This document shows positions 1-54,256 of a DNA stretch of 64,000 nt, in pieces (within the stretch, counting starts at the first letter, position 1; the number at the start of each line of letters is the position of its first letter). Below the pieces are notes generated by a model that was not told the DNA's origin, made no database searches, and saw only the letters and a program-made list of their open reading frames with translations. The translations under genes were made by a program, and so were the position numbers. This DNA is from Spizellomyces punctatus DAOM BR117 (Eukaryota), in NCBI GenBank assembly GCA_000182565.2, contig KQ257456.1; one strand, given 5' to 3'.

Positions 1-8
1 ACTGGCTC

Positions 9-97
9 TACAATTGGGGTTAGTAGTGCGGAGCCGGTGGGTATTGGCACTAGCACCCGCACCAGGGATTGAACCGCGCGACAACCGGTTCGGAAAC
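9..97 (-). ncRNA. Fanzor omegaRNA: scaffold 97->24 plus guide derived from the flank (23->~9, CUAACCCCAAUUGUA...)
   Basis: Minus strand reads GTTTCCGAACCGGTTGTCGCGCGGTTCAATCCCTGGTGCGGGTGCTAGTGCCAATACCCACCGGCTCCGCACTA, starting ~20 nt after the Fanzor stop and overlapping the right TIR. Hairpin GAACCG/CGGTTC and stem GGTGCGG/CCGCACT. Matches the SpuFz scaffold as I remember it. Guide length is assumed. Confidence 0.88.
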
Positions 98-117
98 CTT
101 AATCTAACTAGTCTACG

Positions 118-2597
118 CTACGCTACCACTGGAACACCCCTCCTGAACACCTCTGGTCTACCGTGTCCATCCAACATTGATTGCATGATTGCCAGCATGT
201 TGCAGGTTGACAGTGTATCTCGATTCCAGTAGCGCATTGTCCAGGCTTGCTGCAAACAGTTAGGGTTGGTACAACCCAGCAATCCATGGACTTTTTCAAC
301 CTTGCCTTCTTGTCATCACCAAGGTCTTGAATGAGGTCATGTTTTGAAGTCCTTTTCAAGGAAGTGTAACGACGAGGACGTCTTCGAGAGATCGCGAGTA
401 AGCCCAAATCGGACGCGGGAAGCACGAATCGCGTGACCAACTCCACCGATTGGGTTACCGCGACCGAAAAAACCGGTTCGGAGAATGGCAATTGGCGCAT
501 TAGATTTCAGCGTGCCTCGTACAACCTGTGGAGGCCCGAGCCAGTGCGGAAAAGGAAGAGATCGGTACCGCCACCAATAAATCAGTTGCGGTGCAGCGAC
601 ACCCATTAGTTTAGTTTAGTTTAACAGTTTATCCAAGAATCTTGTATAAAAAGGATGTATTCAATAAAATAAGTCGGGGGCAGAAGCCGTAGCGACACAA
701 AATCCCCATAACTCGCTTCTCAACTCCAATCTTAGGTTAACAGGAACCTAACAGAGCGCTTCAACGGCCTGATCACCCGTACCGAAGCCTCTAAATCCTG
801 CTCGGTTCACAACTAACCGACTCTCCTTGCCTCTCGCCCCCAAGTCGCTACCGACGCCCAAAGAAAGGATTTGGAGACTACGATTCCTAGTACGGACACC
901 CACACAACCTGCTAGGAGACCCAAGTTGTCTTTACTGTAGTCTACCAACAAAAAATCCGTTACATGGTGGAGAAGCGCGACGAACCGCCTTCCCCTCTCA
1001 AATTCAGCTGAAAACCTTATTCGGTCGTACCGATCCTGCTCCGCTTAAAGAGGGTGCGCCAACCTTTTGTCTTTGATGAGGTCTGAAATCTTGCAGTTCG
1101 ACTGGCATCGCTCCAATCACCCATCATGACAGTAAAGTTTTCACCATACTTGTTGCACATGTTGGATATGAGGTCTGATTCACTCTTCTGATGGTTTATG
1201 AATGTGTGCCATTTCCACCACGTGTGGGCAGGATGTGAGTAGAACTCCTTGCGACAATCCCAATCAGCATGGCGAACAAGAAGGTAGCGAGTAAAATCCA
1301 TGAGGTTCATTGTTTTGTGGCTAGGAATTCATGATTCTATGAGGTCAATATCCCCCTTCTTCATCTGCTGCCTTTGCCTTTGCTGTCAATGGCTACCTGT
1401 CTCCATGGCTCACTGGTTTGCAGTGTAATGAAATGTTGTACCAATGCTGTCTTGGCAGTAGAGAATGTCACGCTTGTTTGGGTCGATAGCAACAACATTC
1501 TCTGCTCAACAAGCAGGTAAGTTGTTCTCCACATATACTGCCTTCACCTCAGCTTCTAGGGTCTTTGCTGACTTTCTCGCTCCATGCTTTCTGTACTTGT
1601 CAGCATTGGGGTGTTTCAAATACACAGAAACCGAGGTACTGTCCATTGTGATCGAGCCTTCAAACTGCATATGGCAGCGAGACCGAAAAGCCTTGGTATG
1701 TAGATTGCAGACGCGCATCCACAGATCATCCTTCTCTAATGCTTCTGCTTCTCGCTGCATGATGCAAAGAATATGAGAGTAGAGAATGATGGTGTCGATC
1801 CGCACATGGCTTTGGATGAGGGAGTGGCGAAGTGGGATTGCACTGAACCGTCGAAATCCATGCTTTTCATATAGGCTTGACAACCAACAGTAGGCAGGGA
1901 AGAAGGCGAGAGGGTCTACAGCAACTGAATATGTGAGCGGCTGGTCGGAAAGGGGAATGAAGGACCACATCTCTTCTAGAAGCTCACTCTCTTCAGCAGT
2001 CAAGTCATCGAGTGACTCGGGCACAGTATCAAAAAGGAAAATTGACTTCAAGTAGTGAAGATGAGCAAAGAAAGCCTTTTGCACATCACTTTTAGGTGGC
2101 AGTTGCTGCTTCTGTCCCTTCACATCGAGCCGCAGATTGATATATCAAAGGAGCATCTGCATAAAATGCTCTTGAACATTGACTTTCAGGTTCATCATCA
2201 TACTTGCTGTCAGGTAATTAATTGACTGCTGCTCACCTCATAGATTTGGATGAACAAAGCTGACAATGCAGCAGTACTGACAAATGTATGGCAACAAGCA
2301 TCCGCATAGCACCTTCTTTGCATCTGTTCTTGGTTGCCAAGCCTCCCCCTTGTTGAGAAGATAGAGAATTGCTTCGATTGTATCTTGATCTACCATGGGA
2401 ACGGATGGCGCAGAGAGGATGTAGAATTTGAGAGCATGGGAAGCATGGTCAGCAAGTTGATGGATAATGGCAATGTAATCAAGAAGACGCTGTCGGTAGG
2501 TCTCATTAGGCAGGAAAGCTTTTGCAAAGGAAGTCTTGTTGCAAGTATGTAAGCAGGTAGGTAGCTTTTCAAGCTTTTGCTTTTTCTTTGGTGGCAT
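118..2597 (-). pseudogene. Fanzor1 (eukaryotic TnpB/Cas12-like RNA-guided nuclease) pseudogene
   Basis: ORF pieces 2238-2597, 1506-2123 and 1017-1310 are in one frame and read like SpuFz1 as I recall it (MPPKKKQKL..HTCNKTSFAKAFLPNETYRQRLLDY; RuvC-I VVAIDPNKRDILY; GDWSDA..KGWRTLFK). The C-terminus resumes at 364 (FLEKDFKT*PHSRPW**QEGKVEKVHGLLGCTNPNC..RYWNRDTLSTCNML..GVPVVA*, stop 118-120). Nine in-frame TGA stops and an LTR insertion/deletion at 365-1030. Confidence 0.95.
365..1030 (+). mobile_element. Truncated LTR retrotransposon: 600-bp 5' LTR (365-964), PBS (965-~980) and a short internal stub
   Basis: Termini TGTAACG (365-371) and CGTTACA (958-964) are perfect 7-bp inverted repeats with TG...CA ends. 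They are followed directly by TGGTGGAGAAGCGCG, complementary to a tRNA 3' end ...CUUCUCCACCA. TATAAAAA at 645-652 and AATAAA at 663-668. Confidence 0.88.
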
Positions 2598-3106
2598 GAT
2601 GATATCTGTGGAAAAAGATGAAAGCCTGGGAAAATGGGCGACGACTTATATAGGATTTTTTGAATCAAACCATAGTTCATGAGTCTAAATCGAGTAAAAT
2701 TATGATTAAATTGGTTGGAATCTATGTACTAGTGCCAAAGTCCACCGGCTCCACACTATGAATGTGCTAGTTTCTACAGCATATGCCTTCATGCTAGACT
2801 ATTGATGTTTTGATTTCGTTCGATTGACCGACAATGTGTTGTGCTTCTTTCATCGTCTTTTTCGTAAGCTCTGTTTTCTTATCTTACGACCCAGTGCGGA
2901 TGGATGAAAGAATAGGCTGGCACATAGCTTCTCGGAACTGGCTCTGTTGACCGTAAATGGGGCGCGCGGCCACGAGCGGTGATGGCTGTGCAGAGCCAAA
3001 TGCTTAGCCACGCAGGAGATAGCCAAGCCCTTTTCAATGTTCACATAATATACCCAACTGGAGCTCCAGATAATTCTCCATAGCGACATTTTGAGACAAG
3101 ACAATA

Positions 3107-3967
3107 ATGGAAGCGATACCAAGACCCACCAAGACAGGCAATCCATTTGGTGCCGGAGTCAGACGCTCATGGGCACCACCAAGCCCAGATGACGACCAAA
3201 GTGTTGGCGACGAGGTTGCTCAGCTCGTGGCCCTCTCTAAAAGAACACTAGAAGTACAGGAGGAGTCTGCGAATGCTACTGCTAGGGCATTGGCAACCGC
3301 CAAGCAAACGGAACAGCTGGGAATGGAGAACTTGGTGAAGCTCAATGCACAGGGTGGTAAGTAGAGATGATCTATGTGGTTTGCATTAGTCCATGTAGCT
3401 TTGACGAACATGACTAAAAGTCCATTCGCTTTGTTAGAACAACTTGACTCAATACATGAAAAAACCGAAGAGACTGGACACAAAATCAAAATTGCCGAAG
3501 CGAAAACCTCGTACCTCGACAAACTCTCTGATTCCTTCCTCCGGCCAATATTTGGCGGTGAAAAGCAAGTTAAACAAAAAGATTCCCAACCATTTGAGTG
3601 GAAAGCACCGCAGGGACCGGACGGCAAACCTCTGTGGGGACGACGTGTTAGCAGTTTACCTGAGGAATTCCCTGGCGCTATCGCAAAAGGAGCCGAACCC
3701 AAGAGCACAGTCAAGCCTGGCGGAATGCTGGGAGACTGGGCGGACGAGGAGGACAAGATAAAATCTGAGATGCATGAACAAGTGATTGAGGAGAATATGG
3801 GACAGATTAGTAATATTGTCAAGGGAATCAAGTACCAAGCGCAGGCGATGGGACAAGAGATAGAGCGACAGAGCCATGTCATTTCAAGGACGGAAGGGAA
3901 TGTGATGGAGCAAACCGATAGAATTCAGGGTGTAAATAGAAGATTGGATAAGATTAGCAGAAAGTAG
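3107..3967 (+). CDS. SEC9: Sec9/SNAP-25-like Qbc SNARE
   Basis: Two SNARE helices (..LVKLNAQGEQLDSIHEK..; ..IEENMGQISNIVKGIKYQAQAMGQEIERQSHVISR..) joined in frame across a GT-AG intron at 3357-3437. Confidence 0.8.
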
Positions 3968-4747
3968 GAATTGTAGTAGGATATGTAATTATAGCGACTG
4001 CGTGCAACATTCTTGGTCGTCATCAAAGGCCCAACTCACCTCCAGGGCCAAAAAGTAGGGCTAACTATCAAGAAAGCCTTCAAATGAGCGTCAAAAATAA
4101 CACAATTCTTGTCAAAAGCATTTCCAACCACTCTGTACACGTGACGCATGCTCACGTTCTCCTCCAACCATTCATTTCAATTCAACACCACTCATTGCAG
4201 CACGCGCTCTCGCTGGTGGTTGCGACATACAACATGCAAGCTTTAAACGAATAAGCAAAAACCCAACTCATCCTGAAGCAGGGCCACTGAGCACAACCGG
4301 CAACATGACTTTATAAAAGACTCTTGGGGTCAAGTTATTTCCTTCGTTAGAAGAAAACAAGAGATATATAGAGACTGACAGGCTTTTTTGGACATTTTGG
4401 GTGAGTGTTTGCGTTCATGGTTTTGGAGTGGAGGAGAAGGGGCATCTGCGCATCCGCTAATGTATTGTTGCAGTTTTAAGTTATTCACTTCTACGCCTAT
4501 CCAGTGGAGGATAATATTATTACAACCCCACGACTACCATCCGAACGGTTAACGCTGTTGCGTCAGATATTGTCGGTCTCCAAAGTATATCCAGACAAGC
4601 GTTTTAGGTGAAGCAGGCACCTGCTCCACGCACGGGCAACACACAAGACGCATACCCACACGCACGTCCACACACAAAACACAGAGTGCGCAGACTCTTC
4701 TTCCACCTCGCTTCCCCATCGTTTCCCTCCTTGTGCCCATGCTATCA

Positions 4748-5606
4748 ATGTCGTCTATAAAGCCTTCACCCCTGCCTCCAACGGTCCAACTCCCAGAGTA
4801 CTTCCACCTCGTTGACGTCAATCACCTAACCCAGCTAATAGGTAACTTAATTTTCCTTGCGGATCCTTTGTGTTTCTTTTATTAATCGGCACCCTCCCCG
4901 CAGCTGACATGTTAATCCGCCTCACATCCCACAACGACCAAATACCGCTAACAAGCTCAAATTTGACCCGGTTCCACTCGCGCGCACCACCAGGAATAAG
5001 TATACCAGAGTACCTCAAGCGGATCGTGAAATATGCGTCGATTGAACGTGTGTGCCTGTTGATACTGTTGATTTACATTGATCGCGTTTGCGAGCGTCAT
5101 CGGGGATTCACTATTTCAAGCTTGACGGTACATCGATTTGTCATTACCGGGATTACATGCGCCTCCAAGGCGCTGTGCGATTCATATCTGGTATGAGTTT
5201 CTTCCTGAAAAACGGACGTATCGTTCGTATTGTTCTTGAACTTACATCTCTGGCATGGCAGACGAATACAATGTATGCCAAAGTGGGCGGAATTACAACA
5301 AAGGAACTCAACATTCTCGAATTGGAATTTTTATTTTTGATCGATTGGCATTTGGCTGCCAATGTAGAGATGCTACAAAAATATTACGCGAATCTCGTGC
5401 GGCAGGTTTGTTTCCTCTGTTATTTGTTTTAATTACTGGACTAGTAGCGCTAATTAGAGCTTTGCTGGTAGCACCCGTACTATACAAGGTTGACAAAACC
5501 TATACTATCCCCAGTTTCACCCTCCTCGACGGACAGTATGGTATACTCTGTTGTAAACTCTGTACAGATGCAACGGTCATCCTCCGAAATAGAATGGGTT
5601 GATTGA
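4748..5606 (+). CDS. Pho80/Pcl-family cyclin
   Basis: Motifs TRFHSRAPPGISIPEYLKRIVKY, TVHRFVITGITCASKALCD and YAKVGGITTKELNILELEFL. Three GT-AG introns inferred; ATG 4748, stop 5604-5606. Confidence 0.85.
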
Positions 5607-5718
5607 TTAAAAACTCCCCTCCAGACGGAGAAAACGTCCCTTTTCATATTTACAAATGCATGCACCACACGCATGTACATTACCCACCAAAATATAAAAA
5701 ACATTAACAAGCAAATTA

Positions 5719-7251
5719 TCAAGCAAAGTATACTCCCTCCCCAGGCCACACCCATTCTGCCTTAACGACATCTTCAAATCCAATTAATTTATCTTCTTCA
5801 CTTTTGAACAAGTTATTCCACACACATTTCGCAAATCCTTGATGCGCCCTCCAATTTGGGTGCGCACCGTCTGCAGCGCTCGCAAGGAAGCGTTTATAGA
5901 CATGTTGATCAATAGGTTCCTCAATGGTCGGTTGTATCGTGACTTTAAATTGCGTAACGGGCGACCAATCGTAGTCGTGTACGACTCGTCGAATGCTGTT
6001 GTTCACCGCCTGACATTTTCGGCGACAGAGGAGGATATCGGCATTAGATGATTCAGGACCCAGAATGCCAGACACGTCCGGAATCGTCAAGAGACATACA
6101 AAACACTTGTCGACGCAGCTCCGCAACAGCTGTAACGCTTCGACAAGTGGTTGACAAACGCGTTGGTCCGCTTCAGCCTTCAAATCTCCAGACCAGTCCA
6201 AGAGTACATCATTCGCTCCAACCCACACAAAAACCATTTTCCACGCGTTTTTCATTGACGTGGCTTCAGGCTTATTGAGTTTGGATATGAGGTCGACGAC
6301 CTGATCTCTTACATCTCTAGCCGTCGTTCCAGATCGAGCAAAATTCCATCCTCCATCATGTCTAGCTCCACATCGGGTTTTTGTCTGGCTCAGTCCGACC
6401 AAATTCGGGGAGAATGTTTTCAATAATTTTCCTACAGATATGACGCTCGGATGAGATCCAGCAATACATGTCTTATGTCTCTGCTCGCCGGACAAGAGCC
6501 ATGCAAGGTGTTTGTTTGTCTGCTTTGATAGGTTCAGCACGGGTGTGTGACTAGGGTCGTCCAAGCACAGCCCTGTCATGAGCGAGTCCCCGAGCGATAT
6601 CAGTAGTTGAATGTCCTGTGGGTGAAGAGTGGCGGATGTGGGTGTTTTGAATGTTGGAGAAGTGCACTGCAGCGATAGCGAAGATGAAGAAGGACTCTTG
6701 TTAAAACCTAGGGCAGACCATAGAGTCGAGGTGCGAGCTGCGGATTCTCTACTGGTGGTGTACCACGTCTGCGGTCGTGTATCTGGAACAGGTAGCACTG
6801 GTGATTTGGCTTGTGTCTGCACAACAAGGGATGTGGGTCGCATAACTCCGTCTTTCAGTGCATGTGCGGCTGCCGCCGCAATGGATTGCACGGTCCTATG
6901 TCTAGCGGGCTTGGGTGGTGGGACTGCTCGTGGTTGCTGAGTTGGTTCTGCTGAGGGTGCTACGTCAGGATTCAGCGTTTTGCGAGGAGGCTTGGGGGGA
7001 GGTGATTGTGTATTGGCGAGTGGCAGCTGTAATTTATCATTGTCCATCCAGGAGGGGAAGCCGAATGGGTGCAGTTGGTCCAAGACCTTGTCCAACGTTC
7101 TTGGCGGCATTGAGCTGTCGAGAGTGGCAGTGTTAAACTGAGTATGATGCTGCGAATGCGGCTGATTTTGTAGTGAGGGCTGCTTTGTTCCTGCCAAAAG
7201 AGCCTTGGGAGGTCTTGGCGGAAGGGTGTAGGTAGAGTCTGGCCGTGTCAT
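5719..7251 (-). CDS. GDSL/SGNH lipase (phospholipase B1-like) with a Pro-rich N-terminus
   Basis: 510-aa ORF with SGNH blocks LGDSL, NFARSG, WVGAND and DGAHP. Confidence 0.8.
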   Translation of the reverse strand: MTRPDSTYTLPPRPPKALLAGTKQPSLQNQPHSQHHTQFNTATLDSSMPPRTLDKVLDQLHPFGFPSWMDNDKLQLPLANTQSPPPKPPRKTLNPDVAPSAEPTQQPRAVPPPKPARHRTVQSIAAAAAHALKDGVMRPTSLVVQTQAKSPVLPVPDTRPQTWYTTSRESAARTSTLWSALGFNKSPSSSSLSLQCTSPTFKTPTSATLHPQDIQLLISLGDSLMTGLCLDDPSHTPVLNLSKQTNKHLAWLLSGEQRHKTCIAGSHPSVISVGKLLKTFSPNLVGLSQTKTRCGARHDGGWNFARSGTTARDVRDQVVDLISKLNKPEATSMKNAWKMVFVWVGANDVLLDWSGDLKAEADQRVCQPLVEALQLLRSCVDKCFVCLLTIPDVSGILGPESSNADILLCRRKCQAVNNSIRRVVHDYDWSPVTQFKVTIQPTIEEPIDQHVYKRFLASAADGAHPNWRAHQGFAKCVWNNLFKSEEDKLIGFEDVVKAEWVWPGEGVYFA

Positions 7252-7504
7252 GTCGGGAACAAACCGCCCCCGTCAAGGGCGAAAGTTGCTTTTGGCTCTT
7301 CTTGCTTGCTCTCAGCAATAAGCACAGCAATTGCCTCAAATTAACCACGTGGTCCAAGCCACATGATCGCCAGGAATATCACTAGTTAACTACTATAGTT
7401 ATTCGACTACTTTACTACACTTTTTAAACAAATAGTGACCTTTGCAGTTTTCTATCTTCTAGGCTAGTATAATATATGCTAGTAGGATCTACATCCTGAG
7501 CTCA

Positions 7505-10500
7505 TTAAACTCCTCCACTCCCCTTGCCGGAGGCCAATTGCCTCCCGGAATTCGCTTGGATCGGGGACAAACATCTGGGCGACGAAATATTAGCTTCTGC
7601 CGCCAAGAAGGTCTCCCACTCTTCCGCTTTCTCAGCACTATCCATTTGAACCCATAAGGTCTGCTTGCAATATTTGATCTCTAGAATATTCTCCAGCCCA
7701 CGAATGTCTAACAATTCTTTTGGAACTATCCGTATGTCGCAGAACGCTTTGTCGAGCATTATGCTGGTGCCGACAAACGTGGAATCAGCGGCAGAGCAGT
7801 CAACCAGAGTTAAAATACGGCCCGGTGCACTAGTCGCGGTCATGGTGTGCTTCCTCCATACAGAAGCAAGGGAACTGTAATTCTTTACGGGATATGTTCC
7901 TTGCAGAATCGTCTGAAAGGCAGAGGAATGCTCAGAGAAAGCAATATCAAATAACCTTAACTTTGCGCACTTACCGCTGGCTGGTGATTGAACAAGGACC
8001 TCTTCTCGTCTGAACGAGTGACAGAGAGTTTGCCATGCAATTGTAGCTGTTTGACACTTTTGCTTGCCGTCAATTCCACCCTTGCCCGCAACAGGAGGAC
8101 GCGGAGAAGATGTCGACCGATGCAGCATGCGTACGTAACTGTGACAGCTAATAATATCACGAACGTTCGGATTCGGAATTCAGTTAACGGATTCTGGTCC
8201 GACAAGCTGAGGGTAGCGATAATGATGCCGCAGCAGACAAGAATGTTGTAAACAGTCAATCCAATGAATTTGCTCTCATTAAACTCTGACCAAACTTGTC
8301 GGGTTTTGATTGCTGTACGATGATTTATGTCAGCTTCTGAATTGTGTCTATAAAATCGAACGTTACCATTACAACTCACCCAAGAAAGTCAAACACAACA
8401 TCAAGAGCCCAGCGTAGACCTCCAATGCAATAGTAACTCCATTCTGTACCGCTGTATTAGGAGACGAGCAAACATCAGTGTACGTCCCCGCCGATGTGTT
8501 CTCCACTCGACGAGATTGTCGTGGCGAGAGACCGGACCATATGCAGAGGAGCAGCACTGGAAATAAAAGCAAGGTCCCACTGGCCCTAAGAAGAACCACA
8601 TCGGGCATCGCGTTGCTGTGGAGCACTCGGTTGTCGAATATCCAATAGATCCGCCAAAGTTTAACCAACAAATTGACCTGGTGGTTGACATGCGGCAAAG
8701 GTTAGAAACACTTGTTGACGACGTCATTAATGCGTGAAGTTCCTACCAAGACCATACTAATACCAATAATAAGCAGCCAGGCATACGTTGTGCATGCCAA
8801 AGCCGTCGGCCGAGCAGCGTCCACAAAAACTCCAAGGAGTACCAGCCCGAGTCCCAGCAAAATGAAGAAACAAAACAGAGACGAGACAGCCTTGAGAGTC
8901 TTCTCGTGCCTGAAAATAACAACCAATGCCAAGGAAACAACCACCACTGCGAGCATGATGCTGTAGAGCAGAAACGCTACTATAGTTAACGGTGAACTCA
9001 TGTCGATGAACACCGGGACCAAAAGTGGACTGTCCCGTGGTACTGTGGTGGTACCGTCAAAGAAGATAGGCTTTGTCGAGAGATGCGTAACAACGGAATA
9101 TTCGTCGGATACCGCAACCGGGGCAAAACTTTCTCCGTTCCAGTTGAAAACATTGTATGCATTGACACGCTCATAATTATCATCCAGAAGGATATCTCCA
9201 GTGACACCTACGAGGTTTTTCTGTAGGAATGTCTGAAGCGTAAGTGCTGGAAATGTTTGAGCAGCTACATTTATCATCAAAGTCAGAATTGGCAATAGTT
9301 AGGTTTCAATGATTCGAGACTACGTACCTATTTCGCTGATTGTATAATTTTGGAGCATGTTGTGGTAAGAATGTATCAGTCCGAGTAAACAATCGACGTA
9401 GAACCCTGAGTACTGGGCTGGCTCGCTGCCGTACGTAGCGGTAAAGCTGGATGCAGTTGCAAGGTTAGACCTTAAGGCTACGTAAACAAAACTTTATATC
9501 GACGTAACGTCCTCCTACTTTTTCAGGAAATCATCTCCTTTTGTTCCTGAGAAATCGCGTGGGGTACTCATCACAAATCCTGCAATGGAAGCAGAGTGAG
9601 TTTGTCGATTCACACCAAAAGTATGAATACGTGTAAGCATACCACGCAACAAATGGCTGTTATTCGGGACCTGACTTCTCATGTATTCTACAATACTTCT
9701 CATATTTTCTCCTCCAATCCAAACATAGTCCTTCCCGACTAGACCAGCCTCGTATGCATGGCGATATAAACTGCTGAACTCGTCATACATTCCGCAAAAT
9801 ACAATGATTCGAGCATTGGTAGCCGTAATGACCGAGAAATCCAAAGTCTGACCACCGACAGTGAAACCCAAGCGGGAGAGTACCTCCACATTTAATTGAG
9901 CAGCACGACGGACAGCTGCGTCGGCCATTGACTGACCATAGACGGTGTCCGACGCAATGATGGCGATCTTCTTCCAATTCATGGCAGCAGCATAATTGAC
10001 TATAGCCGTTCCAGTCTTATCATCTGATGGAATTGTTCGCCAAAAATTTGGAAATACCTGCCGTTACAGACACGAAATAGTGAGCAATGCAAAGCAAATC
10101 ATTCCGTTTATAATCTTAACGATGCAACTCACCGTCTTGTCTTCAAAGGTTGTAGCAGTTGATGCGCCGGAGCATTGCAAAATATGGTGATTTTGCAAAA
10201 CATAAGAAAGCACTTCCGTAGCACCAGAATTGAACTCGCCAAGCACCCCATGGCTTTTATTCTTCATGTCAAGGATGGCGGCAGCCGGTAAGCACATTAT
10301 GAATCATACAAGTTAATCCCAGGCAATTAAAATGCACTCACCGCAACAGCGTTGATACCCAAATTGACAGTGTTGCTCTTGCTCTTTTTTGTATCAAGAT
10401 ATGATAGTCTTATGGTGGCTCCCGGTAGGAGATCGTTGTTGCTGTTGGTTGTGTTCACAACGAGGTCAAGGGACTTTTGAATGGAGGACTGCCAGACCAG

Positions 10501-10691
10501 AAGACCGTCATGTTACAGCTATAGGCGACAGAACTGTACTTGTAATCTGATATGCTCACCGTCTCTATAGTGTAATTAGAAAAGGGCAGCATCACATGAA
10601 ACCGCAGTTCCGCTGGCCCTGTGCCAGCCATTACACCGGGGGCGATCAAACTTAGCCATCGCAATAGAGAAACTAGCGTTCGGGATAACAT
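7505..10691 (-). CDS. Class C (GABA-B-like) GPCR: Venus flytrap domain plus 7TM, multi-exon
   Basis: Signal-like N-terminus. ANF-receptor motifs GVLGEFNSG, NWKKIAII..YGQSM, ARIIVF, GLVGKDYVWI and GVTGDI. 7TM motifs KAVSSLF, VKLWRIYWIFDN and SEFNESKFIGLTVYN. Exon boundaries and start are approximate. Confidence 0.82.
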
Positions 10692-12329
10692 TCTAGGCAA
10701 GTCATAAAGATTGTGAAATGACACTTAAATCACCGGGCAACTGGCCTGAACTATTTATAATATGGCAATGTCTGTTATCTTTGGAATTAGGACACCATAT
10801 GAAGGTCTCCATTAGTATGTGGTATAGCCACAATAGATGTATTCAAACTTTTGGCTTCCGACATGCAAATCGCAAAGAACGCCGATTCACTTGTCCTTCA
10901 TTTTGACCTAACCATATCGGCACTCAAACATAGGCCTCAAATCAAAGGAGCGGAGGGCTTCTGGAAGGGACTCCCTCGGTTGCCAGGTGCAAACAACAAA
11001 CTAAACTCAGTGGCTCCATGCTATGTTGCCCACATAGTAACTTTGACAGAATAAATTCCAAATTCTGTCGGTAATTAAAGTTCTGGCTCCATGTACTAAT
11101 AAGATGTTCACATTCGACTTTGGTAACTTTGGGCCACACTTTCAATATGGCTGAAGGATCATGCAAATGAATAGCCCGCAAACATTAGCGCGTGAAAATA
11201 ACAAATATGGTCGGGCAGTCTGGTTATTGTTTGACATCCGGAACTGATGAACTGATTGAAACTTCAAGAAGAAGTGGATGCAATCAGAACATATTGACTG
11301 AGATATTTGGCCTCATTCGAGTCCTCAAATGATGATGCGGAAATAAAACTTCTGTAAGTTCTGTAAGTAGGCCAGCCGTAACATAGTCCCTCAACAGCTA
11401 ATCTACTAGTCAATATGAACTAGCAATTTCCATCAACTTCTTGCGAATAAAGAATTATCCCATAAATAACCATAAATAAAGGAAACTACGGTCCCACCAA
11501 TTTTGAATGATGACATGCCATTCTCCGGTTTTTTTCCGGCATAAAAAACGAGGGTAACTTCAATGAATATAACTTCCAGGTATTACTTGGACTACAACCG
11601 AACCTCCGGCTCTTCCGTAGTTGTTTCACTCTTCACAAACTATAAACGCCTCCTTGGTCGGAAGTAGCTGCGTTGTCATTGTTTTCTGAAAATAGTTCGA
11701 AATCTGACAACAGGATGAAAGACCCTGATATGTGAAAATCTGGATATTCCGTGGTTCAGTCCTCAACACATCGCTTTTCCGCCGTAAGTTTCTTTCATGC
11801 GCGATAGGCGCCAATTACCAGCGGAAACCCTGCATTCGCATAATACGTTTGAGATAAGAATGTCCGTAAACTATTCCCAAGGTAAAATCTCGCAAAGTTT
11901 CTCCCCTGACTTTATTCACAGTTGCACTTGGATTGGTCGCAATAAAATATGAAAACCAGCGAGGAAATGGATCGTACGTGGCGCACAGTAAAAAAATGCA
12001 TACAACAAATCTAGAAATTCCATTGCATCCAACGAGGTAGGTGCAGCATTACGGAGCAACAGACCCATTCTGGTACAGCATCTTGCTCATCTCCAACAGA
12101 TGGAACGCGTCAAAATCCAGGACAGCTCGACAGAAAGGACGTTGCAGGCCATAATACAGATTTGTGTAGCGCAGACAACCACAAAACTGAGGACTTCTTA
12201 TCGAAATGTCCTTTTTAAACGGATACAATATTTCAGATGTCAATCCTGAAATCGATATGTGTATATAATTTGTAGATAGCAATATTATCCCGTTAACCAT
12301 TACCGCAGTCCTATGCTGTCATATTCATA

Positions 12330-13083
12330 GTGTGAACGTGGTTGAAAATGGCACTAGGACCCATTATTATCCGGATTAGTCCGGTTAATCGTATCGCATA
12401 ATCAGAACCCCCATCTATCGCTCAAAGCGGTGAGGCATGCATGCTAATGTTCTCCAAACTGCGGTGTGGCACATGCTAATGTAACGTTTTTTCTTTCAGC
12501 TGGACCCCATTTTGCCACATTCGAGGTCTATAAAGGGGGGCCTTCTGTCTCTTCCCTCTCTCCCCTTCCTCACCAGTTCCTCGACTCTCAAAGCATCTGC
12601 CAAACGCTCAAGCAACTCTCAAGTCCATCATGAGAGTACTGCTCTGGTGCTGAGGACCTCGCCCTCCCGACTACCAGCAACTGGAACCAGCGCAGCTTCG
12701 GAACCAACAAAGCTGTTATTATGCTGCCACATTAGTTGAGCTTGGTTGGTATGTACTGATGGCATCATCTCTTTTCATGTTATTCTGTCACTGACATGCA
12801 GTTTTTTTCTCTAGTCTCCAAGCCTTGTCCCTGAAAATCCCCCAGCTTGTGACGCTGCCCAGTCGATTCGCTCCTGGATGCAAGAGTCTGGCTTCAATGC
12901 CATCAAGAGTTCTGGATCAAGGCCTAGTAGGGACCGCGTGTGGTGGTGGGCAGTTATCCGGTTAGAACAACCGTTACGTATTGCGTGCATAATTGCCTAG
13001 TAGTTAGTTAGCTTTTCCGAACCGGTTGTCGCCGGTTTATTCCCTGGTGTAGTAGCTAGTGCCATTTTCTGTCACCTCTACAC
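12330..13083 (+). mobile_element. Non-autonomous Fanzor-family 'ghost' element (no intact Fanzor ORF)
   Basis: Left flank CATA (12326-12329), then GTGTGAACGTGGTTGAAAATGGCACTAG. The right end reverse-complements to GTGTAGAGGTGACAGAAAATGGCACTAG and is followed by TA (13084-13085). An omegaRNA scaffold overlaps the right end. Confidence 0.88.
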
Positions 13084-13100
13084 TAAGAATAAGTCACTCA
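13012..13100 (+). ncRNA. Diverged Fanzor omegaRNA: scaffold ~13012-13085 plus guide AGAAUAAGUCACUCA...
   Basis: TTTTCCGAACCGGTTGTCGCCGGTTTATTCCCTGGTGTAGTAGCTAGTGCCATTTTCTGTCACCTCTACACTA is colinear with the scaffold at 97->24. Hairpin AACCGG/CCGGTT and stem GGTGTAG/CTACACT. Guide length is assumed. Confidence 0.82.
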
Positions 13101-13141
13101 TACATCATGAAGCTATCGCCAAGCTGTTCACCGCGGCATTC

Positions 13142-15254
13142 TCATATCTCATCCACTCCTAACGCCACAGATGGTTTACCAAAGTTTGCGTCAAATCCAA
13201 CAGCGCCTTCCGCAAAGAAAACGGCGCCGTCAGCTCGCACATCCTTACGCTTTCCAAAGTCAAAGGCAAAAGCGCTAGAGCCTGTTTCATCTTCATTCAT
13301 TCCCAAAAGACCGTAGCGCCGCCAACGCGGTGAAAGCCTTAACCACCTTGTCGAGCTACCAGCTCGTAAACCGGCTCCATGTAGTATGCTCTCAAAGTTT
13401 TTCAGATTGCGCTGGGAGAGGACTATATAAAATGGGTCCATGTCTGATTTTGTCATATCCAATCGACCTGTTTGATCAAGCGGCCGACGCGCATCAAGGA
13501 TGTCTTCGATTGTTTGCAGGATTCGAGATGATGAAGCGTCTGGGCTACTCATGAACGAGTCGCACAAATCATATGTCGACGTAGAGGTGGTTGTTGTGCT
13601 TGTTGACGTTGGGTCTGTTTCGTCCGGTGCGGGGGTAATGGTGATGGTCTGTGCGATATCGGATAGCGCGGAAAAGCGACGGTCAAGAATGCCTTGTGGT
13701 TGATCAGGTGTGGCTGCATGACTGCAGGTTGTGTAATCTGGCCAAACAAAATCTGATAATTGGACATGTAAGTGGGTCACAATTGCGATGCCAATTTTGA
13801 TGAATGAGTACTTACAAATGGTAGCTTTGAACTTGGTGTACGGATTTTCCTTTTCCTCCTTGGATAGCATAGTTTCTTCTGACGTTCCAGTCCTTGCGTG
13901 TGCAGACTGACAATGCTGGTGGTATTGCCATTGGTGACAAAAATCCGTCTGCGTTTCCTTGCCAGTGCCCTCGTTATGTGTGCTCGGTTCCGGTTCTGGA
14001 GAGAGTACAGTTGTTACCGGTATCGGAAGAGGTCTGTCCTCTGGAGCGTGCGCGTTGATGGATGGAAGCTAGAGAAACAAAGTGAGACGAGTGAGACGGG
14101 AACTTGGTCCAATATGCAATGAGAGCAAAGAAACAGACACTTACTATTGCGAATAAGTACGTAGGTACCGTCTTGCACTCATTTTTCTGCTTTCCTCGCA
14201 AGGCTCTTTTTGCCAGAAACTTGTCCAACACATCCAAACCAGCCCTACTTCCAATCATCAGTCCTGCATACCGATAAGGATCCTCCTCGGTTCTGTCCGC
14301 TATCTGCTCAACATTCCCGCTGACAAATTTTGCAAACCAATCACGTACATCGGCAATCTCATTTTGCTCTGACTGATCGTTTTCTCCCGCATCCCCAGCT
14401 CGATCTGGTCCCATGCCACCCATCCGACCATGTCGACCCCACAACCTACGCGAATGTTTCCATGTCGTATGACCGCAGTCCCACCATTCGCGCAGATCAG
14501 AATCTTTATTTGTCAAGCCTCTCACACAATGGCCATCATGAATCCAAGTACCCTCTACTTGGGAACCAAAGGACGGTACAACCTCCGCCACCTCTCCATG
14601 GCGAATCCCATGAAACTGAGAAATAGTATCTGCACCGCCAAAGAAAAACCCATCATCGACGGATGCTCTCTGCTCTTCCTCTTCACTTATCGTATTTTTG
14701 CGAACTATGTCCTCAAGATTGCCCAGAGTTGGGTCAGTAGTGTCAAAGCCAGCAGAGGTGCGTAGTTGGATATCACGCCAAGTCGTTCGACCAACTCTTC
14801 GTAGACATTGCTGGAGGGATTCTAGTCCAGAAGATCCATCAACGATCAAGGTGTGCGTGGTGGGGTGCGACGATGTTCGTGTGTGGATCGTAACAAGGGG
14901 GCCGCCGTGGAGGGTCGGGTGAAGCATTACACGCATCGTCCAAGACTCTGGTTCTGTCGGTACACTCCCTCTTCCATAGTGTAATGGGAAATCAACCCAG
15001 CCCACATTGGGTCCAACTTCCATGCCGAGATCAAACACCCTACCATGTCCATCCCCTTTACTGAACCCTTTTTGAACACCCCACTCAGGTTTTTGAAGTA
15101 CCCACTCCACTGCATTTCTCCAAGCCCTACAAACGCCTTTGCAGGATAAAATTAAATCATCTAGACAAGGTGGATTCGTGTGTAGTCGGGTAAAGAGGAT
15201 GAGAAGGATGTCTGTTGGAAGAGCTGTAGGGCCATTGCGACCTGATGATGACAT
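13142..15254 (-). CDS. F-box-like protein (two exons)
   Basis: N-terminal LPTDILLILFTRL..LSCKGVCRAWR. An intron at 14144-14069 (GTAAGT...CTCTAG) joins ORFs 13974-15254 and 13142-13870 in frame (1110 + 927 nt). Confidence 0.7.
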
Positions 15255-16000
15255 GCTAAACGAGAAGCTCTGGACCGTCTGCAGTCAAGGGAAGGAAACA
15301 ATTAGAGGTGATATTTCTTTCCTCTGGTTACAGATCTGATCGGAAACTGACGCTTACGGAGTTGCTGCGCCATATCCAAGCCACGCTCCAGCGATTACTT
15401 GGCGAGACTCTCCGTCTAGGTTAGACTTATTAGCATATCATTCACACTGAAAGAGTTTGGAAATCATGCAAACATGAATAATCCTGCAGACGACATGACT
15501 AGAATTGACGTATTTCGATCGTATACTTATTTTCACAAATCTTTGAATATCTTTTAAACCAGCCAGTTTCGCTCTACGTTCCAACACCTTCAAATAGTGT
15601 ACGATGCTCGAATTGATTAGCGTCCACGAATACCGAGAAACGGCGATATTTTGGTAAAGTAGAGTTATCATGTGAAATACAGCATTGTACCTCTAATAGA
15701 ATACGGTATGTTCCGGGGAGATCCCGCAATAAAAACAGCATGAGTATTAGATAAATCTGGAGCAATTTGGCTTTTGATTGACTGACTTTGATGTACGTAC
15801 AGTAACAGCTAGACCCGCACGCGGGAACGATCGAAAATACGATGTTCTGGCTGATCGGTGAAGCGATAATATGTAAGTGAAGAGGACAAGTTTACACGAC
15901 GTGATGCAGCATATAATATTTTACTGAAAAGTGTTTACATGGATATTTTACAGTATCTGGCAATAAATGAAAGCGCATCCTCACATCCCTACATAATATA

Positions 16001-19000
16001 CTACGCATTCATCTCCTCCAATTTTTCATGCAACCCCCTTTGCACATCACAGAGAACCAGATAGACATCCCAAATCCTATTATCTCTCCACCTTGGCTTT
16101 ATTTTGATGGGCGGGAGCCACTTGGTTGGCCCCTCTAGTTCCTCACCATCAGACTCTTCATCATTGTCCTCTTCGACCAGTTCAGGATGCCCGTCCCCAT
16201 ATACTTCCGAGATCAATTCCTCATCCTGTTTCCTCATTTTTTCTTCCCACGCACGTAAAAGCACAGTCAATCCAGTTCTCAAAGCAGCGACAATGAGCAA
16301 AAAGTCATTAATCAGCTGCCATACGTCCCCTGGTCGTATTCCGTTTCCATCAATGAGCGCCTGGAACTGGCCGTGCTTGTAAAAGTCAACAATGTACGAG
16401 TCGAGAACGGTACTTGTGTCAAGAAGTTCATAGACGGTTGGAACCACTGTATGTTGAAGTCTCACACCGCCACGGAGAGTGCGAGACATCTCTTTCACGG
16501 ATTTGAATTTATCGTCCTTGCCAGAGAGGGCAACGAACGGAGATCTGGCCACATAACTGAGCGATGTATCCGCAAGACGAGCAAACATGGGTGATTCTTT
16601 CGGCACGGCGCGGCGAGTTTTCACAAAAGCCCGCTCAGATAAAGGCAGATAAGTTATTTCCTCCTCTTTCAATGTCCGCACATAATGATGGATATAAGAC
16701 TCCATGATACGGAACACTAGAATGTTGTGCTCCGAAAGGACCTTACGCATTGCCTCGGGCATAGGCTCAAGGAAAACCTTTGAAGGCGATCTCCTTATTA
16801 ATTCTTTTGCAAAGGCCGTAAGAGTCGATGGCCGTTCACGCCTGTCAGTATAAATCATGAACCGTAAGCCCAGCATCGGAGGATTCATCGATCAATGATA
16901 TCACCACCTTACCTGCCAAATAAGTGAGCAAGACATGTTAACATAGTCAAATTAGGATCCTTTCCAAGGGCGATCTCGCTTAGTACACCGGAATTCAAAA
17001 GAACCGCGAAACACAAATTCTGCAATTTCCACAAGTGTTAGTCCAAAAAACCAAATCAGTGTCTTCAAGATTCAAGTGAACCGGAAACCTACCATCGGCT
17101 CCGTCCAATACAAGTGGGAAACAATCCCTGCCAAGTTAATGGGGTGTCCATTCACATCCAGCAGCTCGGCTCTACGCAAGTACTCAATAGAGAACCTCAA
17201 ATGGTGCAAAACCTCCTGTTTTGTCGCCGGGTTCACGATCGATAATCTTCCCAATGTAAGTACCTCTTCCAACATTTTCTGTCCCATGTCGGCTGCGTCC
17301 GCGTCGCTCAGCAGCTGATGCAACCTGAGAACGAGTGTTGTGGAGAGCGGGAAATGCCCACTAAGATCCGGTAGCCGAGAAGCAAGGAGACGATAGACCT
17401 TTTCGAGTGGCAATCCAAAGAAGACAACGTTACCAAGCAGATCAAATCCACGTCTTCCAGCTCGTCCAGCAGCCTGTCTGTACTCTAGTGCGGTCAAATA
17501 AACGCTGTCCTCGGTGAAGACTGAGGTAGCAGCTGGCATATTGATACCCAGTGCTAGTGTTCCAGTCGCAACAACTACACGTAGCCATCCTGCCCGGAAC
17601 CACCTCTCCACAAGTTGACGATACCGCAGGTTCATTCCTGCATGATGGATCCCAATACCACGTCGCAATGCTGAACACAAGCCAGGATCAACCCTTCCCC
17701 ATTTTCTGAGCCCATTGATTTCTGCATCAATTTCCGATGGCGACAGACTGGACTTTAACCCAGCGAAACTAAAGGCGGCTAACGGGGCGTCGGGGTCAAA
17801 CGTGGACTCCCAGCCCATATCGGAATCCGGAAGATTGTCCGCGTCTTCAGACCGCGTTTGTGCTCGTGCTTGTTTCTCTTGTGCGGCTTGTCGGACAGCC
17901 TCGGCAGCTTTCCAGGCCTTCCATGCTTTGATCTTGGCTTTCCATTCCGGACTCGTTCGCTTGTACTTTTTTTCAGCTTTCTTCAACTCTGCCCATATTC
18001 GTAGCCCTAATTGCTCCACGTTGTCACGGGAGTAGTTGAAGAGGATGGCTGGGAGTTTCCCATTTCTATGGAGATCATGACATAATGCGATCACATTCTT
18101 CAATGCAAACTTGAGCCCAATGGGTTCTTCTCCAATGGCACTTCTACATGTTTCCCAGGTAGCACGTAGTTTCTCCGTCATTCTGTCCATGACGCGGCTG
18201 TACGGTCTCGAATTTCGTGCGCCCGGCATCTCCATCCAGCTCTGCAATATCGCCTTTAATTCGTTCTGGTACTGTATGATATCAGACTTTTTGATGTACT
18301 TGTGGCCAAAGTACTCTTCAGGCTTCAGTTTTGACAGTAATTCAGCGCCTTCCCCACGTTGCTCACTAGCCATAGTTTCATATAACTGTAAGCATTCGAA
18401 AGGTTCCAAATGGAGATCATCAGGAATAGTAGTAGCACCAAGGGAGAGAGCGGCGACTGGATGCAGATGGCAAAGACTAGTACCCCGCTCGCTCGAATCT
18501 TCATCCAACCTTGTGAACTTGGGTAGATTCAAAGGAAGATAAACGAATTTTCGGAGATCGGAATATCGGTGCGCATGTCTGACCATTTCCAACTTGTGCC
18601 CTTTTGCAGTTTGCACGGCTTCCAACCACTATATTTGGTATTCGAAAAGCACAACCATTAGGCAATTATTCGGTTACGAAAGTAGCACTTCTCCTTTCTC
18701 ACCTGACTAAACTCTGTAGGATTTCCCACTGTGGCCGAAAGCGCAACAATTGGAGAAGGTGAAAGAATAAGATTTTGCTCCCAAATTAAGCCACCGTCAA
18801 GGTTACCTGTGTTAGCGAAATACCAAATAAGCAACGTGTACACAATTGCGTGCCCCGCAGAAACCAGCGTCACCTACTAATGCTATGTATCTCATCGAAG
18901 ATGATACGCCTTAGACGTGGGGTCCACTCGGCACTTACATCAGGCTGGAGCATCAATATTTGTAATATATGCGGTACCTATGGAACGAGTAAAAACTTTA

Positions 19001-49579: not shown

Positions 49580-49905
49580 GCCTGGCAGTGGTTGTGCCGT
49601 TCTCTGGTAGTGAATCTAGTGCAGGGCTGTTACTTTTTGGAATTTAATGCCGGGTTTGAACCCGAAGTGTATGGGGATGTTTACCCGGCCTTGTCAGTGC
49701 CAGAAGATTGCTGATACTTTCCTCCATCAACGATGTATCAGATAGAGAAGCAAATGCAAATTGAAATTGAAAATGAATATACAGGAAGGCAATCATGCTG
49801 TCTAGCAATAAAGCTATACAAGTCCTCGAAAGATTGCACACACATTACATGGCAAATGGGAAGGTCTCTGGTACATCTGGTGAAGCATCCGGGAAGTGGG
49901 CCGTC

Positions 49906-53857: not shown

Positions 53858-54256
53858 ATACGAGACGCATTCCAAGATCCATGAGAGAGACAGCATAAGC
53901 TGTGGCAATCACGGCCATGTCGGACCATCAGTTTTTCCCTTGCTGTATGCACACCAAGAGCCGTATCCTCAGGCAGTCCTCTGCCTAGACAAGACAGAGG
54001 GGAGTGCCCCGCCATCACGCACGTAGGTGCGATCCGATACCCCATCTTGAAAGACAACGAATGCTAACGCCAGCCGATACGAGACGCATTCCAAGATCCA
54101 TGAGAGAGACAGCATAAGCTGTGGCAATCACGGCCATATCAGACCATCAGTTTTTCCCTTGCTGTATGCACACCAAGAGCCGTATCCTCAGGCAGTCCTA
54201 TGTCTTGGAAAGACACAGGGGAGTGCCCGCCATCACGCACGTAGGTGCGATCCGAT
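53858..54256 (+). repeat. ~181-bp direct repeat with a 219-bp period
   Basis: 53858-54038 matches 54077-54256 (ATACGAGACGCATTCC...GGTGCGATCCGAT). Confidence 0.9.

What the first reader, a model, noticed from the sequence alone, without database searches (positions are those of the whole stretch)
12326..13105. Nuclease-less 'ghost' element carrying a second, diverged omegaRNA with its own guide
Seen: a 754-bp element ~10 kb from the Fanzor copy, with a CATA left flank, TA duplication, TIRs and a colinear omegaRNA scaffold followed by a different guide (AGAATAAGTCACTCATAC). It has no intact Fanzor ORF and is invisible in the ORF track. Established: ORF-less Fanzor 'ghost' loci have been reported in S. 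punctatus. Inference: this is a distinct subfamily (the TIR middles differ from the Fanzor copy) that borrows both transposase and nuclease in trans, making a dispersed guide-RNA repertoire.
Basis: partly seen in the sequence, partly recalled or inferred. Interest (0 to 1): 0.88.

Follow-up and report, generated by a model that had tools for sequence, protein, structure and literature searches.

The report
Published Fanzor "ghost" guide-RNA element
This is a real nuclease-less transposon that carries only a Fanzor guide RNA, but this exact locus in the chytrid fungus Spizellomyces punctatus was already catalogued in the 2023 Fanzor paper and an identical RNA scaffold was tested there, so it is not a new discovery.

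Summary
Window 12328-13085 (+) is a 758-bp element with 30-nt inverted repeats, CA+TA (=CATA) on its left, no Fanzor coding remnant, and a 74-nt omegaRNA scaffold (13012-13085) followed by the guide AGAATAAGTCACTCA (13086-13100).

It is already published. The window is S. punctatus DAOM BR117 scaffold NW_015971543. This locus is record 'NW_015971543.5 ghost' in Supplementary Data 2 of Saito et al. 2023 (PMC10432273), one of 134 'ghost Spu-1 elements'. Its scaffold is letter-identical to 'SpuFz1 Ghost4', which guided SpuFz1 editing in human cells. The distinct inverted repeats and the in-trans guide repertoire idea are also in that paper.

- The neighbouring 'Fanzor copy' (24-2758, minus strand) is a pseudogene with 9 in-frame stops and a ~0.6-kb insertion, so any nuclease must come from elsewhere.
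- The ghost core is unrelated to Fanzor.
- One RNA run shows strongly plus-strand, spliced transcripts (66-nt GT..AG intron, 12749-12814). Depth collapses just past the right end.
- Most of those reads come from paralogous ghosts.
- RefSeq models a small spliced ORF in at least 3 other ghosts (a 4th motif hit was not displayed), but their exon-2 frames disagree and this copy has a stop at codon 8. A protein is unlikely.

Interest is low.

The parts
12326..12329 (+). CATA: CA flank plus the terminal TA of the left IR. It equals the published SpuFz1 TAM.
   Evidence: Sequence. TAM 5'-CATA and the conserved CA upstream of the 5' IR are in PMC10432273.
12328..12357 (+). Left 30-nt inverted repeat of the ghost Spu-1 element.
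   Evidence: Matches the 'end' feature 295753_295724 of record NW_015971543.5 ghost.
12358..13011 (+). Ghost core, 654 bp. Unrelated to the Fanzor ORF, conserved among ghost copies and transcribed on the + strand.
   Evidence: No SpuFz1 tblastn hit. No similarity to the Fz copy beyond the element ends. No other copy in the window. Colinear by eye with other ghost records in Suppl. Data 2. RNA depth.
12749..12814 (+). 66-nt GT..AG spliceosomal intron inside the ghost core.
   Evidence: joint 12747->12814, skips 66, GT..AG (cut +1), 178 + 4 reads, 16 starts. Depth is 1.15 in bin 12774-12812 against 279 and 907 in the bins beside it. The same intron is annotated in RefSeq mRNAs of other ghosts. 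Reads are family-wide, not locus-specific.
12630..12653 (+). Start of the ghost-core ORF (ATG 12630), broken here by TGA at codon 8 (12651-12653).
   Evidence: At 12651, 926 of 956 + strand RNA reads carry C (CGA), so they come from paralogues.
13012..13085 (+). 74-nt omegaRNA scaffold: stem-loop 1, a linker, and stem 2 whose 3' strand is the right IR.
   Evidence: Identical to 'SpuFz1 Ghost4 omegaRNA 75-nt scaffold'. Fold of 13013-13087: -22.2 kcal/mol, z -3.4, 0 of 200 shuffles as good. CM score 97 bits. All 17 pairs are standard in both scaffolds, 2 of them compensatory.
13056..13085 (+). Right 30-nt inverted repeat, overlapping the 3' half of the scaffold.
   Evidence: 'End' feature 296481_296452.
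13086..13100 (+). Predicted 15-nt guide: unique flank directly after the scaffold.
   Evidence: Position taken by analogy with the published 14-15-nt extension. Only one match in the window at up to 3 mismatches. + strand RNA depth is 3748 in bin 13047-13085, 23.4 in 13086-13124 and 1.18 in 13125-13163.
24..2758 (-). Neighbouring Spu-1 Fanzor element (locus SPPG_04428). The nuclease gene is a pseudogene but the omegaRNA scaffold (24-98) is intact.
   Evidence: tblastn: 78% identity to SpuFz1 residues 1-534. Translating the matched frames gives 6 + 3 in-frame stops. About 0.6 kb is inserted between roughly 375 and 1031. IRs at 24-53 and 2729-2758. CM score 101.5 bits. Identified in Suppl. Data 1.

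Best explanation
This is a 'ghost Spu-1' element of Spizellomyces punctatus. It is a 758-bp non-autonomous terminal-inverted-repeat transposon that carries no nuclease gene. Instead it has a 0.65-kb non-coding core followed by an omegaRNA scaffold that overlaps its right end.

Proposed mechanism, step by step:
1. Transcription. The element is transcribed on the + strand from inside its core, and a 66-nt intron is removed. This is shown at the family level by RNA reads and by RefSeq mRNAs of paralogues.
2. Processing. The 3' part is processed into scaffold 13012-13085 plus about 15 nt of unique flank (13086-13100). The processing itself is inferred from the published small-RNA data on Fz loci. 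Here only the sharp fall in depth past the right end is seen.
3. Loading. The RNA is bound in trans by SpuFz1 made from one of the intact copies elsewhere in the genome. The copy 9.6 kb away is dead. Binding and guiding were shown in human cells by Saito et al. for an identical scaffold with a replaced guide.
4. Targeting. The RNP would cut DNA reading CATA followed by the guide, which is the sequence of the unoccupied insertion site. The occupied site reads ACTA before the guide and so lacks the TAM (read from the sequence, using the published TAM).
5. Outcome. Repair from an occupied copy would then retain or spread the element. This is inference by analogy with TnpB.
6. Mobilisation. An unknown enzyme that acts at TA moves the element. 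Nothing is shown.
For: Identity of the locus: the window maps to NW_015971543 (SPPG_04428 and SPPG_04429 translations found in Suppl. Data 1). This element's two ends are the 'end' features of record NW_015971543.5 ghost, whose printed sequence matches the window.

Family features in the sequence:
- 30-nt IRs.
- CA upstream of the left IR.
- IRs differing from the Fz IRs at 8 and 10 of 30 positions.
- No Fz remnant.

Scaffold:
- Letter-identical to the Ghost4 scaffold.
- Predicted fold with two stems and the 3-nt bulge described in the paper, z -3.4.
- All 17 shared pairs form in both scaffolds, with 2 compensatory pairs whose 5' partners lie outside the IR.

Published function: four 75-nt ghost scaffolds gave indel rates comparable to the improved canonical scaffolds. 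A 2026 study tested more ghost scaffolds (PMC13434818, passages read).

RNA, one run (X16):
- + strand depth is 372-1800 in exon 1, about 9,000-17,500 in 12852-13007 and 3,700-8,100 over the scaffold.
- It then falls to 23.4 and 1.2 past the right end.
- There are 178 spliced reads.
- + strand depth exceeds - strand depth by about 50- to 450-fold in these bins.
Against: Most RNA reads laid on this copy come from paralogous ghosts. At 12988, 17639 of 17699 reads differ from this locus, and at 12651, 926 of 956 differ. Locus-specific expression therefore rests on a mean depth of 23.4 in the first 39 nt of unique flank, plus small minorities of matching reads.

Other limits of the RNA evidence:
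- The tool found no place where many molecules begin or end, so neither the mature 5' nor the 3' end of the RNA is shown.
- Only one RNA run was laid.
- Run X9 gave contigs only at 12883-12964 and none on the scaffold.

Limits on the mechanism:
- The native guide of this locus has never been tested.
- No empty site, second strain or whole genome was available.
- Homing, TA duplication and other genomic targets of the guide are all untested.
- The authors found no transposase.
- With only two scaffolds the covariation test has no power (133 of 500 shuffles did as well).
Confidence: 0.9

Rival explanations
1. It is an inert, decaying non-autonomous transposon. On this view the omegaRNA-like sequence persists only because it overlaps the right IR and subterminal sequence needed for transposition. 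Transcription would be incidental, and the RNA would have no role in the fungus.
For: - The 3' strand of stem 2 is the IR itself.
- CpG observed/expected is 0.64 in the ghost against 0.89 for the window. This copy's core ORF carries a stop where the RNA reads of paralogues have CGA. Both fit neutral decay.
- The guide has no second target in the window.
- No in-vivo function of ghosts has been shown (discussion).
Against: - Stem-loop 1 and the 5' strand of stem 2 lie outside the IR, yet they are conserved between the ghost and Fz scaffolds, with two compensatory pairs.
- The scaffold is intact and identical to one that works with SpuFz1.
- Ghost-family RNA is very abundant and strand-specific.
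Confidence: 0.25
2. The ghost is not ORF-less. Its core would encode a small spliced protein of about 80-145 aa, with the omegaRNA lying in the 3' UTR as it does in Fanzor loci.
For: - RefSeq models CDSs inside at least 3 ghosts: SPPG_09407, SPPG_09412 and SPPG_08830 were seen. The motif GPRPPD occurs 4 times in Suppl. Data 2.
- All three share the same exon 1 peptide and the same intron.
- By-eye reading of four copies showed exon-1 lengths of 119, 125 and 131 nt, all in the same phase. This was not checked by any tool.
Against: - Exon 2 is read in three different frames in the three models seen.
- The N-terminal extension of SPPG_09407 is out of frame in another copy (by eye).
- In this copy codon 8 is TGA.
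- By-eye comparison of exon 2 between copies gave mostly non-synonymous differences.
- phmmer of the exon-2 peptide against 1.84 billion representatives gave only 5 weak hits (35-42% identity, in long proteins). A word-indexed search of longer proteins gave none.
- Annotation pipelines routinely call the longest ORF in any spliced transcript.
Confidence: 0.07
3. Ghost RNAs act as regulators or decoys. By their abundance they would occupy SpuFz1 and so limit, rather than extend, cleavage directed by Fz-linked guides.
For: Ghost-family RNA depth is very high in one RNA run. Ghosts outnumber full-length Fz genes 134 to 19.
Against: No evidence bears on competition. Ghost scaffolds support cleavage at least as well as the canonical 75-nt scaffold. 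The Fz-locus RNA level was not measured here.
Confidence: 0.05

Closest known systems
Ghost Spu-1 elements of S. punctatus (Saito et al. 2023, Nature; PMC10432273)
   Same: Everything that defines them: IRs, the CA motif, a core without Fz, and the omegaRNA over the right IR. This locus is itself one of the 134 listed, and its scaffold equals the tested 'Ghost4' scaffold.
   Different: Nothing structural. At least one other ghost record shares the same scaffold, so it cannot be said that Ghost4 was cloned from this locus. The paper's main text does not mention the intron or native transcription of ghosts (no hits for 'intron', 'spliced' or 'Pol II'). Its figures and PDF supplements could not be seen.
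Spu-1 / SPu-1 Fanzor1 element (Bao and Jurka 2013, PMC3627910; SpuFz1)
   Same: Same IR ends (outer TAGTG and inner TGGCACTAG are invariant), the same CATA/TA context, and a homologous two-stem omegaRNA at the right end.
   Different: No nuclease ORF. The IR middles differ at 8-10 of 30 positions. Stem 2 has a different distal register (a 3-nt bulge instead of an 8-nt loop). The 0.65-kb core is unrelated, so the ghost is not a simple deletion derivative.
TnpB-less IS200/IS605 derivatives that keep an omegaRNA, such as PATE-type elements (recalled, not looked up here)
   Same: A non-autonomous mobile element that keeps the guide RNA at its right end and depends on a nuclease made elsewhere.
   Different: Eukaryotic. 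It has TIRs and a TA context rather than hairpin ends and single-strand transposition, and its precursor is a spliced transcript.
MITEs (miniature inverted-repeat transposable elements)
   Same: Short, with TIRs, no transposase and high copy number.
   Different: Not an internal-deletion copy of its partner, and the partner (Spu-1) itself has no known transposase. It carries a functional-looking RNA gene.

Membership tests
Ghost Spu-1 element (Saito et al. 2023) | Two 30-nt IRs homologous to the Fz IRs but differing at about seven positions. | tested here: met
   IRs at 12328-12357 and 13056-13085. They differ from the window's Fz-copy IRs at 8 of 30 (left) and 10 of 30 (right) positions, all within positions 6-21.
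Ghost Spu-1 element (Saito et al. 2023) | Conserved CA directly upstream of the 5' IR. | tested here: met
   CA at 12326-12327.
Ghost Spu-1 element (Saito et al. 2023) | Lacks the Fz ORF and has the conserved ghost core instead. | tested here: met
   tblastn with SpuFz1 (P0013) finds nothing in 12328-13085. The core is colinear by eye with other ghost records. No tool alignment was made, because supplement sequences were not entered into tools.
Ghost Spu-1 element (Saito et al. 2023) | A roughly 75-nt region over the 3' IR similar to the Fz omegaRNA, with the ghost-type stem 2. | tested here: met
   83% identity over 66 nt. CM score 97 bits. The predicted fold has the 3-nt bulge, where the Fz copy has an 8-nt loop. 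Identical to the Ghost4 scaffold.
Ghost Spu-1 element (Saito et al. 2023) | Listed among the 134 loci of Supplementary Data 2. | tested here: met
   Record NW_015971543.5 ghost, with end coordinates and printed sequence matching the window.
Functional SpuFz1 omegaRNA | Expressed in the fungus as scaffold plus a 14-15-nt guide. | tested here: inconclusive
   One RNA run shows abundant + strand family RNA, and depth falls from 3748 to 23.4 to 1.18 across the right end. The ends were not resolved and most reads are from paralogues.
Functional SpuFz1 omegaRNA | Binds SpuFz1 and directs TAM-dependent DNA cleavage. | not testable with these tools
   Published for the identical scaffold with a replaced guide in HEK293FT cells. 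The native guide has not been tested.
MITE, meaning a deletion derivative of an autonomous TIR transposon | Internal sequence derived from the autonomous partner, which encodes the transposase. | tested here: not met
   Only the ends and the scaffold match the Fz element. The authors found no transposase within Spu-1 IRs.
TA-duplicating TIR transposon (Tc1/mariner-like) | TA target-site duplication made on insertion. | tested here: inconclusive
   TA is present at both ends. Bao and Jurka call it a 'putative TA TSD', while Saito et al. count it inside the IR. No empty site was available for comparison.

The most novel reading that the evidence does not exclude
Ghost elements may be dedicated expression cassettes for guide RNAs rather than gutted Fanzor transposons. 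A core unrelated to Fanzor would supply its own RNA polymerase II-type transcription unit with a spliced intron. Ghost-derived RNAs would then be made at very high levels, could be the main source of SpuFz1 guides in the cell, and would be processed from a spliced precursor.

Splicing, strand-specific RNA and high family-wide abundance are seen here in one run and in RefSeq models of paralogues. That these transcripts are the omegaRNA precursors, and that they dominate Fz loading, is untested.
Probability: 0.35. Interest if true: 0.4.

Novelty: already known. Interest (0 to 1): 0.14.

Why it matters
As a discovery it does not matter. The element family, this locus, its distinct IRs, the activity of its scaffold with SpuFz1 and the in-trans guide repertoire idea are all in print, and ghost scaffolds have since been mined for genome-editing tools.

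The remaining open biology is what ghosts do in the fungus, which enzyme moves them, and how the omegaRNA is made from a spliced precursor. The RNA evidence here gives a small, testable handle on that last question.

Tried and rejected
- **Whole-genome search.** No genome is held for this window. Genome-wide copy counts, empty sites and other CATA-adjacent guide targets could not be examined.
- **Metagenome scan.** A degenerate 18-nt scaffold pattern returned 120 loci. blastn of the ghost and the Fz scaffold against all 120 gave only the 20-30-nt seed matches. These are chance hits, with no environmental relatives.
- **Known RNA families.** Rfam at E<=1 over 1-16000 gave no match. ARAGORN found no tRNA, so the tRNA-T-arm-like look of the scaffold led nowhere.
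- **Long 3' RNA fold.** The abundant 249-nt 3' region (12852-13100) folds no better than shuffles (z -1.3, 17 of 200).
- **Third scaffold in the window.** The covariance-model scan with filters off found none.
- **Earlier findings of this scan.** Two look-ups returned nothing.
- **TATA-box promoter at 12529.** This idea was dropped. RefSeq mRNAs of two paralogues start about 40-50 nt upstream of the equivalent motif. This copy also has extra sequence there that keeps paralogue reads from mapping, so the transcription start is not located.
- **Small-protein idea.** Examined and judged unlikely (see rivals).
- **Other sequencing runs.**
  - Runs X12 and X13 gave word depths of 325-410 over the scaffold and IR against 2.6-2.8 in the flank. 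That would fit roughly 130 copies, but the tool warns that this is not a copy number.
- **Neighbour ORF.** Peptides of the 13142-13870 ORF were not found in the supplements, and no gene is annotated in the published record of this locus.
Full report
**What is there.** Reading 12000-13500 and searching for repeats shows a 758-bp element at 12328-13085 on the + strand.
- It is bounded by 30-nt inverted repeats at 12328-12357 and 13056-13085. Each begins or ends with TA.
- CA at 12326-12327 makes the left flank read CATA.
- In the whole 64-kb window only three inverted pairs were reported at seed 12 and minimum length 25. Two of them involve the ends of this element or of a second, larger element.
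- That second element lies at 24-2758 on the minus strand and carries Fanzor coding sequence.
- The ghost and this element share only their ends and a 66-nt stretch just inside the right end (83% identity).

**The RNA scaffold.** The shared stretch is the omegaRNA scaffold: ghost 13012-13085 and Fanzor copy 24-98 (minus).
- *Folds.* Both fold into two stems. The ghost segment 13013-13087 gives -22.2 kcal/mol, z -3.4, with 0 of 200 shuffles as good. The Fanzor-copy segment 21-95 gives -29.5 kcal/mol, z -2.6, with 4 of 200.
- *Stem 2.* The Fanzor copy has an 8-nt terminal loop in stem 2, and the ghost has a shifted register with a 3-nt bulge.
- *Base pairs.* On the pairwise alignment all 17 shared base pairs are standard in both sequences. 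Two are compensatory (C-G to U-A and G-C to A-U), and their 5' partners lie outside the inverted repeat. With only two sequences the shuffle control has no power (133 of 500).
- *Window scan.* A covariance model built from the two scaffolds and run over the window with filters off scores them 101.5 and 97 bits. The next hit scores 17.5 bits and is the ghost's own left repeat. There is no third scaffold.

**Where the window comes from and what is published.** Saito et al. 2023 (PMC10432273; sections and passages read; supplements) describe the following in S. punctatus DAOM BR117:
- 42 Fz loci, 19 of them full length, and 134 'ghost Spu-1 elements'.
- Ghosts have IRs that differ from the Fz IRs at seven positions, a CA upstream, a conserved core, and a 75-nt region over the 3' IR similar to the Fz omegaRNA.
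- Ghost omegaRNAs have a 3-nt bulge in stem 2 instead of the 8-nt loop.
- Four ghost scaffolds worked with SpuFz1 in HEK293FT cells.
- The discussion proposes that ghost guides extend the targeting repertoire in trans, and notes that no transposase was found within Spu-1 IRs.

The window maps onto these data directly.
- Peptides translated from the window's Fanzor copy and its neighbour match SPPG_04428 and SPPG_04429 on NW_015971543 in Supplementary Data 1.
- With the offset this gives (window + 283396), the ghost's two repeats fall on the 'end' features 295753_295724 and 296481_296452 of record 'NW_015971543.5 ghost' in Supplementary Data 2. The printed sequence of that record is the window sequence.
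- The 74-nt scaffold is letter for letter the 'SpuFz1 Ghost4 omegaRNA 75-nt scaffold' of the supplementary table (one search compared). At least one other ghost record has the same scaffold.
- A 2026 paper (PMC13434818, passages read) has since compared 126 ghost scaffolds for genome editing.
- Bao and Jurka 2013 (PMC3627910, passages) first described SPu-1 with TIRs and a putative TA duplication.

The finding is therefore a correct re-identification of a published locus.

- *TIR middles.* Ghost and Fanzor-copy repeats differ at 8 of 30 (left) and 10 of 30 (right) positions. All differences lie within positions 6-21, and the outer TAGTG and inner TGGCACTAG do not vary.
- *No Fanzor remnant.* tblastn with full-length SpuFz1 (P0013, obtained) hits only 121-2597.
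- *The guide.* It occurs once in the window at up to 3 mismatches.
- *The 'Fanzor copy' is not functional.* It is 78% identical to SpuFz1 over residues 1-534. It carries 6 in-frame stops there and 3 more in the C-terminal part. About 0.6 kb is inserted between roughly 375 and 1031, where the zinc-finger region should be. Its scaffold, however, is intact.

**How it probably works.** The occupied site reads ACTA directly before the guide. Joining the left flank (…CATA) to the right flank would recreate CATA plus guide. With the published strict CATA TAM, the RNA would direct SpuFz1 to the empty site and spare the occupied one. This is the logic proposed for TnpB elements. That step, and repair-mediated retention or spread, are inference. 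The nuclease must be supplied from another locus.

**RNA evidence (one call, four runs).** In the only raw-read RNA run (X16), reads lie almost entirely with the first mate on the + strand.
- *Depth along the element.*
  - 0 in the + strand bins from 12462 to 12578.
  - 372 to 1800 in 12579-12656.
  - 1.15 in 12774-12812.
  - About 9,300-17,500 in 12852-13007.
  - 8,076 and 3,748 over the scaffold.
  - 23.4 in 13086-13124 and about 1 beyond.
- *Splicing.* A joint skipping 66 nt with GT..AG ends (12749-12814) is seen in 178 + 4 reads from 16 start points. This also fixes the RNA as + sense.
- *Paralogue reads.* At 12988, 17639 of 17699 reads differ from this locus. At 12651 the figure is 926 of 956, at 12830 it is 196 of 200, and about half differ at 13023 and 13065. 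The profile therefore describes the ghost family.
- *Locus-specific support.* This is limited to the reads running into the unique flank and to small matching minorities.
- *Ends.* No preferred start or end points were reported.
- *Other runs.* X9 gave contigs only at 12883-12964. X12 and X13 behave like low-depth DNA.
- *RefSeq models of paralogues.* mRNAs in other ghost records start inside the element, use the same intron and run 175-300 nt past the right end. This independently supports a spliced read-through precursor.
- *What is in print.* The paper's main text has no hits for intron, spliced or Pol II. Its figures and PDF supplements could not be seen.

**The small ORF.** The core contains an ATG (12630) opening a frame that crosses the intron.
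- RefSeq annotates such CDSs in at least three ghosts: SPPG_09407, SPPG_09412 and SPPG_08830. The motif GPRPPD occurs 4 times in the file.
- All three share exon 1 but read exon 2 in three different frames.
- In this copy codon 8 is TGA.
- The exon-2 peptide has no credible relatives: 5 weak hits among 1.84 billion representatives and none in the indexed search of longer proteins. Neither library returned the RefSeq models themselves, so their absence from those libraries is weak evidence.
- I judge a conserved protein unlikely.

**Verdict.** The additions here are minor:
- The neighbouring nuclease gene is dead.
- The ghost core is not a Fanzor derivative.
- There is family-level evidence for a spliced, abundant, + strand precursor.
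- Several ghosts carry RefSeq gene models of doubtful coding value.

Noticed in passing
window 24-2758 (minus strand): The Spu-1 Fanzor element beside the ghost is a pseudogene. It has 9 in-frame stops and about 0.6 kb inserted where the C-terminal zinc-finger region should be. RefSeq models it as a truncated 'uncharacterized protein' (SPPG_04428). Its omegaRNA scaffold (24-98) is still near-canonical.
   Followed up: yes
window ~375-1031: The insertion inside the Fanzor pseudogene seems to be a separate repeat. A + strand stretch at about 366-431 encodes the same peptide tail that ends the annotated CDS of another Fz locus (SPPG_02589, seen), apparently in the opposite orientation relative to Fz. 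It has no other copy in this window. It may be the Ty3-type material mentioned by Saito et al.
   Followed up: partly
window 13004 and 13050 (run X16): Thousands of RNA reads match this ghost up to 13004 or 13050 and then continue with a different, consistent sequence (4467 reads at 0.87 agreement; 1885 reads at 0.93). This suggests abundant transcripts from ghost subfamilies with a different linker or stem 2.
   Followed up: no
window 12852-13007: The highest RNA depth (9,000-17,500) lies just upstream of the 74-nt scaffold, not on it. A second run (X9) has contigs only at 12883-12964. The 249-nt region does not fold better than shuffles. It could be a stable processing product, a size-selection effect or a mapping effect.
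   Followed up: partly
Suppl. Data 2 records of other ghosts: Two of the few ghost records read lie within about 100 bp of tRNA genes (tRNA-Thr, tRNA-Arg). One has tRNA-like sequence directly after its right end.
   Followed up: no
window 49574-49905 and 55223-55548; also 53858-54256, 55041-55733: Direct repeats of 88-97% identity are spaced about 5.65 kb apart, with local duplications of 150-190 nt. They are unrelated to the ghost.
   Followed up: no
window 13142-13870 (minus strand): A 242-aa ORF ends 57 nt from the ghost's right end. It has low minus-strand RNA depth (about 3-11) and no Pfam hit. It is not annotated in the published record of this locus.
   Followed up: partly
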